Notes: generated by a model from the letters alone, not told the origin. A DNA stretch of 64,000 bases from Eledone cirrhosa (GCA_964016885.1 OZ024743.1:344844001-344908000), one strand, 5' to 3'; shown: positions 25,896-40,029, counted from the stretch's first letter. Numbers and translations: made by a program.

Positions 25896-28800
25896 CTTTT
25901 TTTTTTTAAATATATATATTTATTTGGTTCCTTTACCGGTTTCGCAGTTCTTCTGATTTTCAAAAGTATAATTGAGATGGAGGGTCTGTGGCTTTTCTCA
26001 CTTCTGATGTGAGAAAAACCACAGACCCTCCATCTCACGAAGGGGCCCACACCGGTTGTCCGGTGAGGAATACGTGGAGGTGCGGCAGCCTGAGCGCGTG
26101 TTTGTGCATCGTCAGCCACGGCATCCCCAGCCCTCCGCTTGAAGGGTGTTGGAAGCAGATGGATCTTCTCACCAAAGGAGCCCGTTCCTTCCAAAGGAAT
26201 TGGAAGAGTGCGCGCTCCATTTTGGCGAGGGTTTTGGTTGGACAAGGCACGACAGTCAAGCGGTAGTAGATCACGGACGCTATAAAAGTGTTCGCCATCT
26301 CCGCTCGACCTTGCAAGGATAGTTTGCACTCGGCCCACTTCTGGGTGAGCGCAAACACCTTGGCCGTCACCTCATTCCAGTTCTTCTCCACCTGGAGGTC
26401 CTGACCAAACCAGACCCCGAGCAGCTTTAACGGTCCTTCCGTCCAGCGTCTGACGACGCCATTAGAAGGCATCGGATTACCTCTCCACGTTCCGAGTTGC
26501 AAACCGACGGATTTGTCCCGGTTCAGCTTCGCTCCTGTGAACCTTTTGTATTCCTTCAGTAAGGTGCCGACCTCCCCGATTTGCGAGGTGCTCGACACCA
26601 TTACTGTCACGGCATTGGCATAAGCCGACGCCGCTTTTCGCAGTCCTGGTTCCAAAGGGATGCCCTGCAATAGCCCCAACTTCCGCAGTAGTAGCTCGAG
26701 AGTCAGTACGTACAGAAGGGAGGAGAGAGGGCATTCCTGTCGGATGGATCACGTGATATGGAATGGCTCCGAGAGGTAACCGTTCACCTTGACCCTTGAG
26801 CAGATGTTGCTGCTGTGCATTGCAACAATCCAGCCCCTGAACATGGGTCCGAAGCCTGCCGCCTCGAGCAGCGCATCCAGGTAACGATGGTCAACCCTAT
26901 CGAAAGCCTTAGACTGATCCAAGTTGATCAGGGCCCCACCGAAGCCGGGTTTACACCCTACCCTCTCTATGGTGTATCGCATGACGTAGAGGTTGTCGTG
27001 TATGGACCTGGTCGGGATTGCGCATGTCTGCGCTTCTCCCACCAGGTTTTCGACGACAAGCGCCAGCCTCTTTGCCAACACCTTGGCCAAAATCTGTAAC
27101 TCTGTGTTTAGCAGAGTTATAGGCCGGAAGTTGCCTATGTCATCCCCCTTATTGTCGTCCTTCCTGACTAACGCGACTATGCCCTTGGTCACAGAAATGG
27201 GAATTCTCCCGTTCTGCTGCCAGTTGCAGTAGACCGCTTCCAGGAGACCGGAGAACAAGTCCGGCATTGCTACGTAAGATTCGCAGGGTAGACCGTCGAG
27301 ACCTGGAGATTTGCGTTTGCCGCATTGGCTCAGCGTGTCCCCTATCTCAGCGGCCGAAATCAGCCTTTCGCAGACTTCGCCTCGCTGTCCGAGAGTCGCG
27401 GCAGGCCGTCGAGGTATGGACCGAAATCCATAGCCCCTCCCGTCGCGCCACCCTGCCCGAACAGTTGAGCAAAGTGCCACTGAAAGGCCGCGCACATCTG
27501 CTTCGCCTCACGTATCATGCGTCCGTCTTTGTCCTTCAAAGACCGAAACGTGGACTTGTTGCCACTTTTCGCCTCCGTGCCTCGGGCCCAGCTAACAGCT
27601 TTGGCTCCCTCGTTTCCCAGAGCACCTATTTTGCTCCTGACAACGCATCCTTCGTGCTTTGCGTCGAAGAACTGGTCCAAGGCCTTTCTCGTCGCTAGCA
27701 CGCTGGCTACGTTGCCACTCCTAAGTGCCTCTTCTACTTTATCTAATAGTTCCTTTTCGGTCTTATTTCTATCTAACACTAATTCTTTATTAAAACCTAT
27801 CGAGTCTAATCAAACTGCCCTCTTGAGAGAGTACCACCATCAGTTGTTGACGATGGCCCCCGTCAAGTGCTGCTTAACTAAAGTGCTAATCCGTCTACTG
27901 AAGGCTTTGCATGTCGGTAACGACAAGTTCAGCTTCCAGTAGCCGGGTCCCTGTCTATGGGTTCTGTCAATGTTGACTAAGCAATTCACTAGTTTGTGAT
28001 CTGAATTGGCAACCATGAACATTTGTGGACAGTTTAACATGTCCCTATCACTAACTCTAACTAGAAACCTATCTAGGTACGATCTAGATGTTCCGCTGTG
28101 GTTGGCCCACGTCCACAGTGCCACAGTCGGAAAATCTAGTCGATATCTATCGACCAGTTGAAATCGGCCGATTAACTGTTTGAGGCTGTTACACCCCCCT
28201 CTATCGGGACATGCTCCCACATAGTCTCAACGTGCATCTAGATTCCATTCCAGTCCCCCACTAACAGCAAGGAGTGAGATGTTCTCAGAAAAGTTTCTAG
28301 ACGTTTGAAGAAGTCTGGCCGCGGTGTCTTGGATAGGGCATATGCGGCCACCAGCCTGAAGGCTCCACCTTCACTACCATCAACGTCGAGGACTACCAGT
28401 CGACCCTCCGGGTCCAGATGTACCGTCTGTGTTACGAGGTCCAGGTGTTTCCGCAACAAAACGGCAAACCCGCCCCCACCCCTCGGCTGACAGAGAGATG
28501 CGTAGATCTCAAAGTCGTCGAAGATGGGTTCCAGATGTCGTTCGCTGTGGATCCTGGACTCGCAAATGGCTACTACATCCATACTGTGCGACCTGAGGTC
28601 GTTTAAGTGTTTGCACTGTTTCCAGGACATCCCCAGACCGCGTACATTCACACATCCAACTCTTATATTGGTCATGTTGGTGCTGAAAAGTTAAAAGAAG
28701 AGGAAAAGAAATCACTCACCTCTTCGTCTCCTGGGGACCAGGCTGCACGATTTCCATGGGGTGTTGGAGGGGTGTCTGGTGAGATGGGGGTGTTTGGGGT

Positions 28801-30330
28801 GGGGATGTATGGGGTGGGGGTGGGTAAACATTTTGACAGGACTCGATTCTAGGGTTTGACGCTGGGGTTACCTACGTCGTTAGGAAATTTTCCTTTTAAC
28901 TGTTTATGGAGATCCTAATCATTTTAAGATTTGGATTTAAATTTTATTGTTAGTATTTATTGTTAGTATTTATGTAGGTGTAACATTTTTGTTGTGTTGT
29001 GTTGCTTTTTGTCTGTGGTTCTTGTGTGTGTTTACGTTTTGTAGTAGGTGTTTTGTTTTCAGGAGGGGGTGTTTTTGTTTGTGCTGTTTGCGTCGCTTGT
29101 GTTGGTGTTTGTGTGTTTGTTGAATTTTTGTTTGTGTTATGTCTTTGCTTTTTTCTTTTTACTGGTCGGAAAGGCTCTCCCTCATCGTCACTAGATGACG
29201 TTGATGAGGCCTCATCCGTGGTGGGGAGGGGTACATTTTGGGGAGCTGTTATGTGTGTGGGTATTTCTGGAGTTTTTTTAGGTGGGGAGGGGTTGGGTGG
29301 GAATGTGTTTGTCGTTTGTTTTGTTGTCACTATTTGTTTATGTTGTTGTTGTTGTGGTGGTGGTGATTGTTGTGCTGGTGTTGCAGGTGTTGGCAGTAGT
29401 GCCTTTTTTGGGCTAGTTAGCCGAGGACAGGAAGCTCTCACGCGACCCCTGCTTAAGCAGTGGTAACATGAGGGCCGCCTACGCTCGACCAAAATGTTTA
29501 TGTATATAAGCCCATCCAGCAGCACACGTTCCGGGATCCTAGCTATTCGTTCTGGTGTCATCTGAACCAGAATTTCCAGGCTAGTTCCGCTGAAAAGGTC
29601 GCCGGAGGACTTACCTACCGATATTATTGAGTCTTTTGGGAGGTTTAAACATTCACATAGTACCCACCAAATATCAACATTTGGTGTGATACTTTGGATT
29701 TATATTTTCTGTGTTCTTTTCCCCATGTAAGTGGGGAAAAAGGTGAACAGCGGTGACACAGTTGGTGACACAGAATTATGTGCTGTCAATTGGTCTTTCA
29801 TCAGAATGGATAAACTCCCGTAGAAAGCAATGTCTTTTACAGCATCTTTTAAAACCAACTCAATTTCACCTTGTGAAAGTTGAGTTGGTTTTCATGTTTT
29901 GTTTGAGACTGTCCTGAAAACCACAGTTTTCAAGGCAGTTTCTCTTTGCAAATCTGGGGGAGAGTTTATGGAGAATGATCCGTTCTCCCCAAAAGTTACG
30001 TACTGTCTGGCGTTATTCAAAAGCTGATTAGCATTTGAAATATCCACCGGAGTGTAGCTTACCATTTTCTTTACGGTTTGCGCAAATGATATTTTATCGT
30101 TTACATCCTTGTTGCAGTTATTGGTCTTGTTTTTGTTGTTATTGTTCTTGTTGGTGTTGTTTTCGTTCATAGTATTGTTGTTGTTGTTGTTGTTGCTGGT
30201 GCCGCTGGTTGTGTTGTTTTTGTTCATTGTTTCACACTTTTTGGTTTTGGTTTGTTGCCATGGCAACGTCAAGTTGTTGGTCAGCAGGTGAACAAAATCC
30301 TTCTTCTGGCTGACCTTTGTCTGAGACATC
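25896..30330 (-). mobile_element. Tx1/L1-like LINE, decayed, C-terminal part of ORF2 missing
   Basis: ORF1 remnants (29892-30329; 28950-29561 with degenerate knuckle CYHC...C); APE from 28675 (VNVRGL, LLLVGDWN, SYLDRFLV, SDHK); RT (KSPGLDG, FRPITLLN, LDQSKAFDRVDH, RQECPLS); AATAAA and poly(A) at ~25896-25925. Confidence 0.92.
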
Positions 30331-30648
30331 TGCTACTATTACAGTGGAAGGAGTAAGCTGTAAGCATGTCTTCCCTTTTCCTCGTTCGAATGTCGGTGAA
30401 GCCTTTTTTTAAAAAAACGTTAGTTTTTCCAAAAAATGTTTATGAACTATTTCGCCTAAAGGCGTAGAATAATTTGAGAGACTGACCAGATCAAAATTTT
30501 ACCTGGCAGTCCCTCTACAAATTGCTATAAAAATGAAGGTTCACAGTCAAGAGTTTCTATAGAAATTTAAGCAGAACTTACCCAGCAAGTTTCACGCATG
30601 CGTCCATCCCAGAGATAGATAGATAGATAGATAAACAGATACACAGAG

Positions 30649-32735: not shown

Positions 32736-33830
32736 ACTAAATATTATATACTATGTATGTACTATGTGTTTCTTTAATGATATATGGCTATATACATACA
32801 TTTTCCCCAAGATGCCACGCAGGGATATAGAACCCCAAACCATGCGACTGATAAGCGAACTCCTTAACCACATATCTATCTATCTATCTATCTATCTATA
32901 TATATATATATATATATATATGCAAAGTTTTATTTAAATTGTTGGGTTAACAACGAGTAAATATTTATAACTGATATAAAAGCACTCAACAAGTATTTGG
33001 AGTATATTTACGATATTAAATAAATGGAAACTATATTTATAAAACCATATTTATTTCATTATATATATTTCAGGGATATCATATTAAAAATATGTTATGC
33101 CTTCCTCGGACAAAATACAATATGAACAGTCTTATAAATAGATAGATTCGACATACCTTTCAACATCGACTTCAATTTGAAAAGTTGAATTGGTAGTGGA
33201 AAAAATATATTAGGGACAGTTATAAAAAGAAAGAAAGAAAAAAGAAAAAACGGAGAAAAAGAAGAAATGCATGCAACTAAATAGAGAGAGAGATAGATAT
33301 AGAGAGATAGATAGAGAGAAGAAATTCATGTAAAAAAACAGAGAGAGATATATAGAGAGAGGAAAAAACATAGAGGGAGATAGATAGAGAGAGAGAGAGA
33401 GAAGAGAGGAGAGAGAGAGAGAGAGAAAATATAGAGAGATAGATATAGATAGAGATAGAGAGAAAGAAAATAGGTAGTTGTGCACCTGTTGAATGACGTA
33501 TCAATGATATATTTATTTATTTATTTATTTATTTAGCTCTAGTATCAATGTAGAGAGAGATATATGTGGTTAAGAGAGAAAACAGCCGTTACATAGAGAG
33601 AAAAGAAAAAGAAAAATATCCAGACAAAAACGAGGCAGATTTAAAACACTATGTATCATCAATGTAAAAAATATCAATTCGTATAAAACAGGCATTATAA
33701 TGTAAATATCAGTATTCATGAATGAGACACGTATCAATAAAGTGTGAAAAATAATGATCATATGTCTAGTTTAAAATTCATAGGTTTATATTAGAAGGTT
33801 ATCCCAGATTTTATACTATATACATCATGT

Positions 33831-33930
33831 GAAGCTCGGCCACTCATACACCAGGATAAAAATCCTCATCTAGTCCAGAATCAGCCGTCGAAACGGCCCG
33901 AGCCCAGCCGTCGGGGTCCTACTCGTCCCT
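33831..33930 (+). repeat. pLTR arm A (T>C-hypermutated copy)
   Basis: Gapless 100-bp match to 36592-36691 with 11 T>C and 1 A>T. Confidence 0.9.
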
Positions 33931-33959
33931 ATATATATATATGTATATATGTATGTATA

Positions 33960-33995
<36 letters not shown>

Positions 33996-34132
33996 TATGT
34001 ATATATATATATATGTATATATGTATGTATATGTATATATATATATATGTATATGTATATATGTATGTATATGTATATATATATATATGTATATGTATAT
34101 ATGTATGTATATGTATATATATATATATATAT

Positions 34133-36688
34133 GTAATAGGAACGAGTAGGACCCCGACGGCCGAGCCCAAGCCGCTTCGACGGCCAACTCTGGACCAAAT
34201 GAAAACTCCCATCCTGGTACATGAACAGCCGAGCCTCTCAGGGGGTAATTCCATACATGGCAAAAGTGATTGTCACAAGGATCGGTCAAAAGTTTGTTGC
34301 TGAGACACACAACTCCATCATGGCAACTTGTGGAAGGAAGGGGCAGCTGAACCCGCCAGTAGAAGAAAGAGGGAGAGAGGGTGGAGGAAACCCATCCGCG
34401 CGCCGATAGCGCCAACTACAGCAGGACAGGAGGTCAAGGAAGTATACTAGGGAGGGGGAGGGCGAGGAAGTTGAAACAATAAGTAAAACAATATGGGGCA
34501 AATATATAGAAAAATACCGAGAATGTTAAAAAAAACAATTAAATATAAAAAAAAAACAATTTCTGGTTACTATCACCTAAGGACAGCTATCAAGTCTCTC
34601 ACTGGAACTGCTAGACTAAAGAAAGGTTTACTAGGTGGGACGGAATTATAATGAGACCTTTTTAAGAGGTAGTAGTAATCAACCGAGTATATCTTACGGT
34701 GACAGGTCAACAAGTCGGGAGCCAAAATACTAAAGAAACTACCACGTAAAAATAATTCAGAGTCCCGAGACTAATACGAAATAATCGTTTCTGCCCTAGG
34801 CACAAGGCCAGCAACTACACAGTGCAAAAAATAAACTAATACGAAATAATAATTCAGAATCCCGAAAAAGAATACTAATACTATCTCTAAGGATGCCGCT
34901 ACGATACAAACATTTTAGTGCAAACTACATAAATGCTCGTACGAAGTATATGAAAAATTTGATACGGAAAATTAATTCAGACCCCCCCCCCCCCCCACAC
35001 CAAAATAAAAAAATACTGATATACGAGAAATTGAAGCAAAGATACCACTAGAGAAATGTAGAAAGCACGGAAAAGGGGCAGCCATCGGATAAGAAGGCAA
35101 GTATCCGGGTCTATCACATCTGCTATAAAAAGTAGAGTCGGCCAATTCTATCTTAGAATAGGGGAAGGAGGTGCGGTACTGAGGCTACAAAGGACCGAGG
35201 GGCTGCCTCGGGTGGGCGAGAAAGTGAAAAGGACGACGACAAAGAAAGAGGACTGGGGTGGAAGGACTAGGGAGGGATGGGGGGAAGAAGGAAATATAGA
35301 GGAAGCGATAAAAAGATATAAAATAAATCTTACGTCTACCTTTGCAAGCTGGGGTTACCCATTACAAAGTCGGCAAGTGGGGTGTTACAACCCTTGTCTA
35401 CCCCCCCCCCCCCCCGGGTCATTATGGGGTTTGAGGGCGAGGTAAGTCCTACGCAATCTATGTTTGCATGCAGTTACCAGTTCATCTTTTTTGTTTAGGA
35501 GTTGGTCCGTCGAAAACAGCATTTGTAAAGTTTCCTCCGAGCATAAATTGCACCGACGGCGTCCTCCCGTGTAAGAGTTGGCTCTGGACAGTAAGCTCCA
35601 AGTGAGATCATAGGTAATATTGTTATCATTGAGGTCCCAGATGTGGCCCGAAAGTGTAGTGGCGTGACGCCGGGCCGGGTTTCGGAAGGTATGTCAGTGT
35701 TGGTATAGCCAGGTCTTGAAGTCACATGCGGTTAATCCTATATAAGCTTTGTTGGAGGTGTCCGTCCTCACGTTGCACTGGTAGATCACATTACGATCTC
35801 TACATCTGTTGTCGAGGGGGAAAATGGATCCATCAGGACAGTTGCACCTCCTGGTCGGCTCTCCACTGCTATTTAGGTTATTTCTTCCATAGGGGTTGAG
35901 TTTTTTGTTGTTAGAGGAGACGATGTTTTGTGCAAAGTTTGGTGTGGTGCTGTAGGAGAGTTTGATGGTATTTTTGTTAATTATGTTGTGGTAGCAGTGT
36001 TGTGGTGGGAAGTGTTTTTCAATGAGCCTAAAGAAGATTTTCCCGATAGGAGTTGTCACCTCGGCGTTGTGGGGAGGATTGAACCATGTTACATTGCGTG
36101 AGCGGCGGTGTCGCCTGCTGGTTCCGCTAATGGAAGCTGGACAGTAGGATATTTCATCCCGGAAACCACTCCGCTTGAGGGCCTGGTTGTAATAAGGCGC
36201 ATGTTCCTCGAATATCTGCTCATTGGCGGACAAACGAGATATGCGGAGGTAGATGTTTTTAACCAGGTTATTGGTGATGTTCCTAGGATGGTTTGACCGG
36301 CGGTGGATGTAGTGCAGGTTGTCGTTAGGTTTCCTGTATGGGTAGTACAGATCATTATCGAGGTCAAGGGTAACGTCCAGGAAGTTTACTCGGGTCAGGG
36401 ACGTTTGTAGGGTTATTTTAAATCCCCAGTCGCGGAAGAAGCTGATTAATTGTTTACGGACCCGATCTGTACTACTGGGGTCGTACCCTTTAAGGGTAAG
36501 GAGCCCATCATCACGGTACAATCCACCGCCGAATGCGGGAAACATATCGGTGAGTTTAGTTAGTAGGTACCATATATGGAATGACCCATGAGAAGCTCGG
36601 CTATTCATATACCAGGATAAAAAATTTCATTTAGTCCAGAATTAGCCGTCGAAACGGCTTGAGCTCAGCCGTCGGGGTCCTACTCGTT

Positions 36689-36691
<3 letters not shown>
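34133..36691 (-). mobile_element. Penelope-like element, 5'-truncated, with 3' pLTR (~34133-34260) and inverted 5' pLTR arm (~36570-36691)
   Basis: YRDDGL, VNFLDVTLDL, PYRKPND, TWFNPP, KLSYS, CNC..NVIYQC..YIGLT (GIY-YIG); after a frameshift CNLC..LNKKDELVTACKH ending ~35450; (TA)n flanks. Confidence 0.92.
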
Positions 36692-36782
<91 letters not shown>

Positions 36783-36843
36783 TGTGTGTGTGTGTGTGAT
36801 GTGTGTCGAAGGAATAAATGCATATACACATATGTGCATATGA

Positions 36844-36874
<31 letters not shown>

Positions 36875-36877
<3 letters not shown>

Positions 36878-37075
36878 CGAAGGAAATGTGGTAAGGAACC
36901 AGGTGGACCATAACGCACCAAAGTACTCAATACTTAGGGTAGTAGAGTGGGTAATAGGAACAAGTAAGACCCCGACGGCTGAGCTCAAGCCGTTTCGACG
37001 GCTAATTCTGGACATTAGCCGTCCAGAATTAGCCGTCGAAACGGCTTGAGCTCAGCCGTCGGGGTCTTACTTGTT

Positions 37076-37080
<5 letters not shown>
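36875..37080 (-). mobile_element. Short inverted-pair pLTR insertion (same family as 36570-36691)
   Basis: Long minus arm with tail ~36875-37012; short plus arm ~37021-37080 ending TTCCTAT + (TA)n. Confidence 0.85.
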
Positions 37081-37113
<33 letters not shown>

Positions 37114-37218
37114 TAAACATATTAACATATATACATATGAATATTTATATATATATTCACACACACACAATATATTTATATATATATGTATATATAATTT
37201 TCCTCATGTATTCCTCAC

Positions 37219-37263
<45 letters not shown>

Positions 37264-37264
37264 C

Positions 37265-37325
<61 letters not shown>

Positions 37326-37338
37326 GTAAATATATATG

Positions 37339-37371
<33 letters not shown>

Positions 37372-37400
37372 GTATATGTATATGTATATATATATATATG

Positions 37401-37461
<61 letters not shown>

Positions 37462-37466
<5 letters not shown>

Positions 37467-37653
37467 AACAAATAAGACCCCGACGGCTGAGCTCAAGCCG
37501 TTTCGACGGCTAATTCTGTACAGAATTAGCCGTCGAAACGGCTTGAGCTCAGCCGTCGGGGTCTTATTTGTTCCTATTACCCACTCTACTACCCTAAGTA
37601 TTGAGTACTTTGGTGCGTTATGGTCCACTTGGTTCCTTACCACATTTCCTTCG

Positions 37654-37656
<3 letters not shown>
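37462..37656 (+). mobile_element. Short inverted-pair pLTR insertion, mirror orientation of 36875-37080
   Basis: Short minus arm ~37462-37518, centre CTGTACAG, long plus arm with tail to 37656. Confidence 0.85.
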
Positions 37657-37707
<51 letters not shown>

Positions 37708-37724
37708 GTATATATATGTATATC

Positions 37725-37838
<114 letters not shown>

Positions 37839-38720: not shown

Positions 38721-39176
38721 GGGAAAAATTCGTCGTTTCTCTTTTTTTCTTTTTCTTATTATTATTTAGACTTTTATTTGTTTTCTTCCTGACATTCCGA
38801 GTGCAGTCCATTGAAAATACTTGTAATCAATGGAATAATGGAATAATGTAGAAAAGAGAATCTATTCTTCGGTAGACTGTTCTTATGAAACTATTCTTGA
38901 GAAACTATTCTTAGGAAAGCATTCATATAAAAGACATGATATATAAGAGAAACCTATATGAATGCTGACATGGCTTTTATATTTTCGATTAACTTTATTA
39001 TTATTTTTTCCTTTCAATTTCCACCTCAATTGTAAAGTCTATAAAATAGGGTTAACTTCATTTGTTCCTTAAATATTATTATTGTTATTGTAGTTGTTGT
39101 TGTTGCTATTATTATCAACATCATTATAAACATCATCATCACTAATATTATTACTCTTACCATTGTTATTGTTGTT

Positions 39177-39800
39177 GTGAATTGGCAGTATCGGTAGAGG
39201 GTTGGACGGCATGCTTTCTAGTATAGTTACGTCCCTTTACGGTCTGAGTTCAAATCCCGTCGAGGTTAACTTTGCCTTTCATCCTTACGGGGTCGATAAA
39301 ATAAAGTACCAGTAATGCACTGGCTATTTGCTGGCCTTGTGTCAAATGTAGAAACAATTATTATTATTGTTATTATTATTATTATTATTATTATAAGGGC
39401 GGTGGATTGGCAGTATCGATAGGGGGTCGGACGCCATGCTTTACAGCATAGAGTTACGTCCCTTTACTGCGTGAGTTCAAATCCCGCCGAGGTTAACTTT
39501 GCCTTTCATCCTTACGGGGTCGATAAAAGAAAGTACCAGTAACGTACTGAGATAATTGTTGGCCTTGTGCGAAAAGTAGAAACAATAATTATAATTGACA
39601 GCATTGGTAGAGCGTCGGACACCCTGCTTATGACAGAGAGTTTTACCCATTTACTTTCTGAGTTCAAATCCTGGCGCCGTTAGCTTTGCCATTCATCCTT
39701 ACAGGGTGATAAAATAAAGCGCCAGTAACACACTGGGGTCGATTTAATCGACTTACCTCTCTCCCTAAATTGCTGGCTTTGTACGTATAGTAGAAATTAT
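39177..39800 (+). mobile_element. Three tandem tRNA-derived Nin-domain SINEs (~39177-39360, ~39397-39590, ~39597-39800)
   Basis: TGGCAGTATCGGTAG A box, GTTCAAATCC B box, GAGGTTAACTTTGCCTTTCATCCTTACGGGGTCGATAAA; (ATT)n tails. Confidence 0.85.
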
Positions 39801-40029
39801 TATTACTATTATTATCGTGTTCGTTAGTTTGTGGATACGTATTGCTGATCGCTCTTGTAAGTTAGTTGTTATTCTCTAGTCATACAAACTATTTTGTTGA
39901 ACATTTGATATGGTTTTATAGTTAAACCAACCAGATTCTTCATGAGCTGGTTAGTATTTTTCAACCTGTAGCACGTATTAGCTAAACCTACGTTTGTTTT
40001 CTGAATACGCCCTTTAATTCTTATTTAAA

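What the first reader, a model, noticed from the sequence alone, without database searches (positions are those of the whole stretch)
33831..34237. Apparent ADAR-hyper-edited RNA hairpin written back into the genome by a Penelope-like element
Seen: arm A (33831-33930) and arm B (34138-34237) are inverted 100-bp copies of one pLTR around a ~200-bp TA/TATG spacer. Against the copy at 36592-36691, whose T states are supported by the partial copies at 36952-37080 and 37462-37576 where they overlap, I count 11 plus-strand T>C in A and 13 in B. The single other difference is shared by A and B. All 24 private changes are therefore A>G on the minus strand, although the arms face opposite ways. The dense bias matches the pairable 100 bp; beyond 34237 the differences are mixed. 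The minus-strand 5' neighbour is U/A at 19 of 24 sites and G at 3, and many unchanged A's have a 5' G. Established: clustered A>G with 5'-G avoidance in a duplex is the ADAR hyper-editing signature, and coleoid cephalopods edit heavily. Inference: a minus-strand transcript of the adjacent element (34133-36691) read through its pLTR into the inverted arm, folded, was edited, then reverse-transcribed and integrated. That would be a route making RNA edits heritable. Caveat: the TA spacer shows no T>C changes.
Basis: partly seen in the sequence, partly recalled or inferred. Interest (0 to 1): 0.93.

Follow-up and report, generated by a model that had tools for sequence, protein, structure and literature searches.

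The report
RNA edits copied into octopus DNA
In this octopus genome, repeat RNAs that folded back on themselves appear to have been heavily A-to-I edited and then copied back into the chromosomes, so that RNA edits became inherited DNA, and one edited piece has since spread to about 18 places.

Summary
Against the family majority, 37 of 93 minus-strand A's over 33841-34410 read G, versus 0 of 103 on the other strand. The tract runs about 175 bp past the pairable 100 bp. Seven more same-strand loci exist in this octopod genome, in both assembly orientations. Pooled over five loci, 175 of 730 sites changed against 2 of 697, with 5'-G avoidance (p=2e-7). Unpaired spacers inside these loci are unedited. 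At one locus 8 edits are mirrored into a 2.1-kb inverted arm with one other substitution. One edited hairpin rides in 18 copies of a 3.9-kb unit with Penelope-like structure; its edits lie on the inferred RNA strand and sub-lineages carry more. Best reading: ADAR-edited hairpin RNA copied into germline DNA by a Penelope-like reverse transcriptase; here probably primed from the neighbouring Y element, not from the X element alone. Open points: no reads confirm this locus, no donor was found, so new insertion versus in-place rewriting is unresolved, and no RNA data show editing at these sites.

The parts
32921..33833 (-). Family Y Penelope-like arm: 3' end at a TA repeat on the left, 5'-truncated at 33833; young and unedited; probable priming element
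   Evidence: 40 copies at 89-100%; extent and junction; RT/EN-like frames and orientation in other Y copies; 0 of 171 T>C; 5 substitutions against 12 near copies
33831..33932 (+). Arm A: 3' end of family X in plus-sense, 11 T>C; joined to Y through a 3-nt overlap
   Evidence: junction compared with Y and X copies
33933..34132 (.). TA/TATG microsatellite spacer, itself a tandem array of a 34-40 bp unit; no T>C
34133..34499 (-). Arm B and its extension: 3' end of the X element in sense; 27 of 77 conserved A's read G, dense to 34410
   Evidence: minus strand folds a 100-bp duplex with A, z=-13.8 against 20 shuffles
34500..36567 (-). Body of 5'-truncated X element (3' UTR plus ORF end); ordinary divergence, 33 of 1,915 columns, 1 of 508 A>G
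35385..36566 (-). ORF remnant: RT C-terminal part, Cys linker and C-terminal GIY-YIG-type endonuclease, one in-frame stop near 35694
   Evidence: frames; 962 homologues, top ones 36-57% identical, many about 700 aa; endonuclease end aligns to P0003, E=2e-13; no Pfam hit in the local copy
36568..36691 (+). Copy C: inverted X 3' end at the element's 5' junction; unedited
   Evidence: 0 of 31 T>C, 0 of 33 A>G
36875..37656 (.). Two short head-to-head X insertions (about 60-nt arms plus tail) in TA repeats; unedited in-window controls

Best explanation
Penelope-like elements (PLEs) in this octopod insert repeatedly into TA repeats, often as inverted pairs. A minus-strand transcript through such a cluster (X body, B, spacer, antisense A) folded into a long duplex and was hyper-edited A-to-I by ADAR (inferred from signature). 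A PLE reverse transcriptase then copied that RNA into germline DNA, reading I as G. At this locus synthesis most likely began at the Y element's 3' end (TA repeat near 32921), ran through Y and continued, by a template switch at 33833 or along one read-through RNA, across A, the spacer and B. Shown: sequence pattern, strand, context, confinement to pairable segments, recurrence, later copying of edited DNA. Inferred: ADAR as the enzyme, the PLE RT as the copier, the order of events.
For: One substitution type on one strand across oppositely oriented arms: 37/93 vs 0/103 here; 175/730 vs 2/697 over five loci; 29/124, 35/110 and 31/139 vs 2/121, 2/109 and 3/140 at three more. 5' neighbour rates U .31, A .32, C .18, G .09 (p=2e-7; p=9e-6 without this window); 5'-G depletion is the cross-species ADAR motif (PMC5625713, passages). 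Unpaired segments lying between edited hairpins are clean: 0/87, 1/56, 1/73. Within-locus controls: C9 right arm vs its own left arm 51 T>C of 72 substitutions; C22 middle arm 35 of 38. At C22, 8 edits are mirrored into an inverted arm with 1 substitution in 2,144 columns, the inverted-arm layout described for PLE insertions (PMC8557442, PMC3846280, passages). A 3.9-kb unit (18 copies, 10 plus, 8 minus) has a TA-anchored left end in one copy and an inverted copy of that end plus a minus-strand PLE ORF piece in another (2 copies examined in full), so its RNA is the minus strand, the strand of its edits: 26 fixed, 15 segregating against 2 of the opposite type; outside the hairpin 8 vs 9 (microsatellite end left out). 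In 3 loci (window, C9, C22) the tract starts at the truncated end of an unedited minus-sense PLE arm. ADAR deaminase domains at 4 loci; one is 96% identical to O. vulgaris ADAR2.
Against: No read-level confirmation: of 4 runs laid, only X1 holds the family and it shows T at the listed tract sites. No RNA run showing editing of these repeats. No donor locus: window body best hits 97% and 95% (40 of 3,594 and 4,234 candidates scored); C22 spacer has one match. B is edited about 175-260 nt beyond any partner in the window, and its own fold explains this weakly (mean pairing 0.59 edited vs 0.47 unedited). Left arms at C9 and C22 are natural partners of the edited arms yet unedited (0/82), which a single-RNA model does not explain. 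TA spacers are unedited in 3 of 3 tail-to-tail loci. 3'-G enrichment is modest (0.31 vs 0.20-0.24) and absent in the AT-rich Y loci. Loci were found with motifs forcing 1-2 edits, which slightly biases the context counts.
Confidence: 0.72

Rival explanations
1. Same ADAR editing of the locus's own transcript, but written back in place by host RNA-templated break repair or gene conversion (a repair polymerase or another retroelement's RT), not by a PLE insertion event.
For: No donor for the window or C22. Body and copy C are unedited and older (33/1,915 differences) than Y (5 in about 900). Palindromic junctions are break-prone (established knowledge). RT activity of Pol theta and Pol eta on edited RNA has been proposed (PMC10209271, passages).
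Against: Tracts start at PLE truncation points (3 loci). C22 ends in a PLE-type inverted arm that copies the edits. The 18-copy unit is dispersed over at least 7 contigs with PLE-type ends. A PLE RT nicking its own pLTR (PMC11167929, passage) could also act in place.
Confidence: 0.16
2. DNA-level mutagenesis: ADAR deaminating dA in an RNA:DNA hybrid, or an error-prone polymerase (Pol eta-like, W-A preference) on a single-stranded gap.
For: 5' U/A preference is shared with the Pol eta motif (recalled). ADAR acting on transcribed DNA is cited in PMC10209271. It would explain unedited left arms.
Against: Edits stop at unpaired segments lying between edited hairpins in one locus (0/87, 1/56, 1/73); a hybrid or gap would cover them. 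Other substitution types are at background in the window tract (4 in 452 columns).
Confidence: 0.06
3. Assembly or polishing artefact (RNA reads, ambiguity codes or hairpin-induced read errors).
For: No raw DNA reads checked for this locus. The first five same-strand loci all read T>C on the assembly plus strand.
Against: Two further loci read A>G on plus. The 18-copy unit shares 26 edits in both orientations with a mostly tree-like pattern of further edits (3 of 28 site pairs with four gametes). C22 mirrors its edits on the other strand. Most inverted pairs are unedited: 1 locus with 4 or more changes among 231 arms in 146 loci.
Confidence: 0.04
4. C is an ancestral or subfamily state, or the product of an RT error bias.
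For: The family has a C-richer subfamily and a general sense-strand T>C excess (581 vs 212 A>G).
Against: Mean family G frequency at B's edited sites is 1%. A and B change in opposite element-sense directions. The family-wide T>C excess has no neighbour bias (5.0-5.8 per 1,000) and runs opposite to B and to the unit's RNA strand.
Confidence: 0.02

Closest known systems
APOBEC 'DNA editing' of retrotransposons (G-to-A clusters in IAP, HERV, AluY; PMC2873906, passages seen)
   Same: Deaminase clusters in retroelement copies that end up in genomic DNA through reverse transcription.
   Different: There the cDNA is edited C-to-U. Here the change is A>G, confined to fold-back segments, spans both arms of inverted pairs on one strand, and is in an invertebrate. 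That paper treats A-to-G clusters as RNA-derived or as the comparison class.
ADAR A-to-G hypermutation in avian retroviruses RAV-1 and ALV, and HTLV-2/STLV-3 in culture (PMC8586724, passage seen; primary papers not read)
   Same: ADAR-edited RNA is reverse transcribed, so edits appear in DNA.
   Different: Exogenous viruses in somatic cells or culture, called rare. Here endogenous Penelope-like repeats and flanking sequence, present in a reference genome and amplified to 18 copies.
RNA hyper-editing of Penelope in lizard and of octopus repeats (PMC5625713, passages seen)
   Same: Penelope repeats are massively edited substrates (over 40,000 sites in lizard); octopus has an exceptional hyper-editing rate; 5'-G depletion.
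   Different: Measured in RNA only; the passages seen do not report the edits in DNA.
PLE trans-mobilisation and inverted pLTR structures (PMC3846280, PMC8557442, PMC11167929; passages and part 1 of 4 seen)
   Same: Head-to-head inverted arms, optional tail, TA targeting, capture of host sequence, internal initiation, extension of both target strands.
   Different: No editing reported in the passages seen. The edits here act as strand and template markers for the PLE mechanism.
Retroprocessing of edited RNA in plant organelles and kinetoplasts (recalled, not checked in a call)
   Same: RNA edits become DNA by reverse transcription.
   Different: C-to-U or U-insertion editing in organelles; not ADAR, not nuclear repeats.

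Membership tests
ADAR hyper-editing signature | Dense cluster of A>G only, on one strand | tested here: met
   37/93 vs 0/103; 175/730 vs 2/697
ADAR hyper-editing signature | Depletion of G 5' of the edited A | tested here: met
   4/22 vs 33/71, p=0.024 here; 14/155 vs 161/575, p=2e-7 pooled; 3/41 at Y loci
ADAR hyper-editing signature | 3' neighbour preference | tested here: inconclusive
   3'-G 0.31 vs 0.20-0.24, p=0.011, not seen at Y loci; PMC5625713 reports weak 3'-G preference in octopus
ADAR hyper-editing signature | Confined to double-stranded RNA | tested here: inconclusive
   Met at C22 and C2 (unpaired spacers 0/87, 1/56, 1/73) and for the A/B duplex. Not met for 34238-34499, whose partner is missing from the window, and some pairable left arms are unedited.
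ADAR hyper-editing signature | ADAR enzyme present in the host | tested here: met
   A_deamin matches at 4 loci; ADAR2 96% to O. vulgaris. Germline expression not tested.
ADAR hyper-editing signature | Same sites edited in RNA | not testable with these tools
   No stranded RNA reads of this organism were offered
Penelope-like element (canonical EN+, Neptune-like) | Single ORF with RT and C-terminal GIY-YIG endonuclease | tested here: met
   ORF remnant homologous to about 700-aa proteins over both parts; motifs read by eye, no Pfam support
Penelope-like element (canonical EN+, Neptune-like) | 5' truncation, inverted pLTR, optional tail, microsatellite targets | tested here: met
   61 head-to-head pairs among 231 arms; tail in some copies; features as in PMC8557442
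Penelope-like element (canonical EN+, Neptune-like) | Cys linker before the endonuclease (Neptune/Nematis) | tested here: inconclusive
   Cys-rich linker present but one expected Cys is missing in this copy (against P0003); no tree built
Penelope-like element (canonical EN+, Neptune-like) | Hammerhead ribozyme in the pLTR | tested here: not met
   No hammerhead among 40 Rfam matches to E=1 over 32800-37800; the element is 5'-truncated, so this is weak
Retroposed (new-site) insertion | Unedited donor locus elsewhere, or empty site in other individuals | tested here: inconclusive
   No donor found; haploid assembly, only 40 candidates scored per DNA search; other individuals unavailable

The most novel reading that the evidence does not exclude
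PLE reverse transcriptases in octopods jump onto nearby nascent, ADAR-edited transcripts and overwrite the very locus that made them. This is a standing, locus-directed RNA-to-DNA channel that could also fix edits in host genes, and each round of retroposition adds a new layer of edits.
Probability: 0.3. Interest if true: 0.97.

Novelty: new variant of a known kind. Interest (0 to 1): 0.87.

Why it matters
Whether A-to-I edits ever become heritable DNA changes is an open question, argued so far from A/G polymorphism at edited sites (PMC7186786 and PMC10209271, passages seen). Here whole hyper-edited molecules appear fossilised in a reference genome of the animal group with the heaviest editing, at eight independent loci found with a few motifs from two repeat families. 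This gives (1) physical evidence for germline ADAR activity and write-back, (2) a mutational source that dating and selection studies of repeats ignore, and (3) strand and template labels that show how Penelope-like elements build their inverted arms. A genome-wide scan needs only existing assemblies.

Tried and rejected
Read support: the run search was dominated by the TA spacer (best share 0.21). Of 4 runs laid on 34133-36691, X1 covered all 30 bins with family contigs showing T; X20, X21 and X17 covered 6, 3 and 0 bins through simple repeats. This neither confirms nor refutes the locus. Donor searches gave nothing for the window or the C22 spacer; two other 'unique' pieces turned out to be repeats. 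My reading that the C9 left and right arms share private variants is weakened: the left arm has many 98-99% relatives that were not in my pool. A first screen of all loci was contaminated by microsatellites and is not used. One search included overlapping self loci and was redone. A worry that all edited loci lay on the assembly plus strand was dropped. Single-edit motifs returned mostly ordinary single variants (348, 3, 19 and 208 rows; only the first 100 rows were listed in 35 and 49). L280, L228, L201-L203 and L206 were examined and are not hyper-edited; L283 was left out of the 18-copy count because it continues differently. Pfam found nothing on the ORF; Rfam gave only sub-threshold hairpin matches. 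The X 3' end alone folds no better than shuffles (z=0.0). Three look-ups of earlier scan findings returned nothing.

Full report
Observation. The counts are exact: 11 T>C in A, 13 in B, one shared other difference, 5' neighbours U/A 19, G 3, C 2. The window is G000:C4:344844001-344908000 in a 3.0-Gb genome. The host is an octopod: deaminase domains occur at four loci and one frame is 96% identical to O. vulgaris ADAR2. The repeat (family X) is abundant, with 4,242 matches to one degenerate 31-mer. T is the family state at these sites, and the edited combinations are unique.

The tract is longer than reported. Against column majorities from 240 aligned pieces, 37 of 93 conserved minus-strand A's in 33832-34415 read G, against 0 of 103 on the other strand and 1 of 508 in the element body. 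Fifteen of 53 lie in 34238-34503, beyond the present arm A. No longer plus-sense X copy exists in the window. The minus strand folds A against B as a full duplex. The spacer has no C and is a tandem array of a 34-40 bp unit, so it may have expanded later (inference); TA spacers are also unedited at the two other tail-to-tail loci.

Anatomy. X is a 5'-truncated Penelope-like element on the minus strand. Its ORF remnant covers the RT end, a Cys linker and a GIY-YIG-type endonuclease (motifs read by eye, no Pfam hit). Copy C (36568-36691) is the usual inverted arm and is unedited. Left of A lies a different, younger PLE family, Y, with its 3' end at a TA repeat near 32921. It is cut at 33833 and joined to A over a 3-nt overlap, and it is unedited (0 of 171). 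So A was probably longer once, or B's partner lay in a part of the RNA that was not copied (inference).

Recurrence. Motifs forcing one or two edits found four more same-strand X loci: C9:18.397 Mb (L163), C22:27.426 Mb (L232), C2:96.356 Mb (L229) and C1:42.438 Mb (L235). Pooled with the window, 175 of 730 T's are C against 2 of 697 A's being G. Rates by 5' neighbour on the edited strand are U .31, A .32, C .18, G .09 (p=2e-7; 9e-6 without the window). Forced sites make up 1-2 per locus. Unpaired stretches between edited hairpins are clean (0/87, 1/56, 1/73), as are left arms (0/82, 0/57). Direct arm-to-arm comparison gives 51 T>C of 72 substitutions at C9 and 35 of 38 at C22. One Y-family motif returned 23 rows, 11 forward and 12 reverse. 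Two are independent loci that read A>G on the assembly plus strand (L282 35/110, L267 31/139), which removes the orientation worry raised by the first five. As a control, 146 loci not selected for edits held 231 arms and 74 inverted pairs, and one locus had 4 or more such changes (some loci overlap). Write-back is therefore a rare event, not a property of inverted pairs.

Evidence that the edits were in DNA and were copied. At C22 a 2.1-kb inverted arm differs from its partner by one substitution in 2,144 columns and carries 8 edits in mirror image. Eighteen of the 23 Y rows are copies of one unit of about 3.9 kb. Of two copies read in full, one starts at a TA repeat, and the other ends in an inverted copy of that start and contains a minus-strand PLE ORF piece. 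The RNA strand is thus inferred from structure alone, and the edits lie on it. Twenty-six are fixed in all 18 copies and 15 segregate, against 2 of the opposite type; copies carry 29-34, mostly tree-like (3 of 28 pairs with four gametes). Outside the hairpin the two types are balanced, 8 vs 9 (microsatellite end left out). Some of the 18 are tandem or inverted neighbours or possible haplotype duplicates (C3 pair, C545 pair), and three high-frequency segregating sites could be reversions.

A second class. Forcing one G gave 139 rows; 14 of the 100 listed had further G's. Most are short head-to-head X insertions with sense-strand A>G at the same few sites, on either genome strand. The two arms match in some (L241, L236) and differ in others (L242 3 vs 5, L243 3 vs 4, L244 2 vs 7, L240 0 vs 2). 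All 15 site pairs show four gametes (14 arms taken plus the unedited state). This suggests repeated light editing of the element's own RNA, and two RNA templates for some insertions, in line with a PLE that extends both target strands (PMC11167929, part 1 of 4 seen). Conversion between copies could mimic this, and the X 3' end has no exceptional fold, so the duplex for this class is unidentified.

Mechanism. Shown: pattern, strand, context, confinement, recurrence, later copying. Inferred: ADAR edits a fold-back transcript, and a PLE RT copies it. In the window, C9 and C22 the tract begins at the truncated end of an unedited minus-sense PLE arm, where an RT moving left to right would leave its own RNA. 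I therefore favour priming on an intact PLE RNA followed by a switch to the edited molecule, which also explains unedited partner arms. No donor was found for the window (best 97% and 95%) or for C22's spacer, so the edited RNA may have come from the same locus and overwritten it. A donor absent from this haploid assembly fits equally.

Against and unknown. No genomic reads or RNA reads confirm any locus. The 3' neighbour signal is weak and inconsistent. B's extension has no partner. Germline ADAR expression is untested.

What is known. I ran ten literature searches in an open-access library; none listed a report of ADAR-hyper-edited retrotransposon copies fixed or amplified in an animal genome. 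Subscription papers are not covered, and no supplements were read. Nearest cases: APOBEC G-to-A editing of retroelements (PMC2873906, passages), A-to-G hyperedited avian retroviruses (PMC8586724, passage), RNA-level hyper-editing of lizard Penelope and octopus repeats (PMC5625713, passages), PLE capture of host genes (PMC3846280, passages), and the hypothesis of edit-to-DNA replacement (PMC10209271, PMC7186786, passages). PMC5974252 (3 passages) added nothing. Organelle retroprocessing is recalled, not checked. The label 'Neptune-like' rests on PMC8557442 passages and by-eye motifs, not on a tree.

Verdict. Real, recurrent and mechanistically informative: a new variant (ADAR, RNA level, nuclear germline, PLE-mediated, amplified) of a known kind (deaminase marks fixed through reverse transcription). 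Interest 0.87.

Noticed in passing
G000 C1:83.200-83.204 Mb and 17 other places (L264-L266, L268-L279, L284-L286): A 3.9-kb unit with PLE-type ends carries a pre-edited Y hairpin; sub-lineages have extra edits on the inferred RNA strand.
   Followed up: yes
L232/L233 (C22:27.4237-27.4299 Mb): Three separate edited hairpin modules on one strand between 2.1-kb inverted Y-type arms that differ by one substitution.
   Followed up: yes
L236-L244, L145, L161, L148/L149, L154/L155, L152: Short X insertions with sense-only A>G at recurrent sites; the two arms of one insertion often differ.
   Followed up: partly
family X, all sampled copies: Sense-strand T>C exceeds A>G (581 vs 212; singletons 3.1 vs 2.1 per 1,000) without neighbour bias; possibly G misincorporated opposite U by the RT.
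   Followed up: partly
L139, L153, L154, L158, L160, L163: A second X subfamily sharing the terminal 100 bp but about 85-88% identical further in; young, with many 97-99% copies.
   Followed up: partly
window 36875-37080 and 37462-37656: Minimal X insertions of about 60-nt inverted arms plus an 80-nt tail; common genome-wide, perhaps a non-autonomous form.
   Followed up: partly
window 26000-30400: GC-rich, LINE-like stretch on the minus strand with broken frames, judged by eye only.
   Followed up: no
window 39132-39811: Three diverged copies of a repeat about 225 bp apart, with pieces also matching inside the X 3' UTR.
   Followed up: no
L207 1-3979 (C9:18.388-18.392 Mb): Near-identical tandem array with a 311-bp period and an inversion at its left end.
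   Followed up: no
window 32810-32870: Short tRNA-like or SINE-like stretch just left of the TA repeat at Y's end, by eye only.
   Followed up: no
L293 (C6:13.6436-13.6464 Mb): Two large exons of an ADAR2-like deaminase domain.
   Followed up: partly
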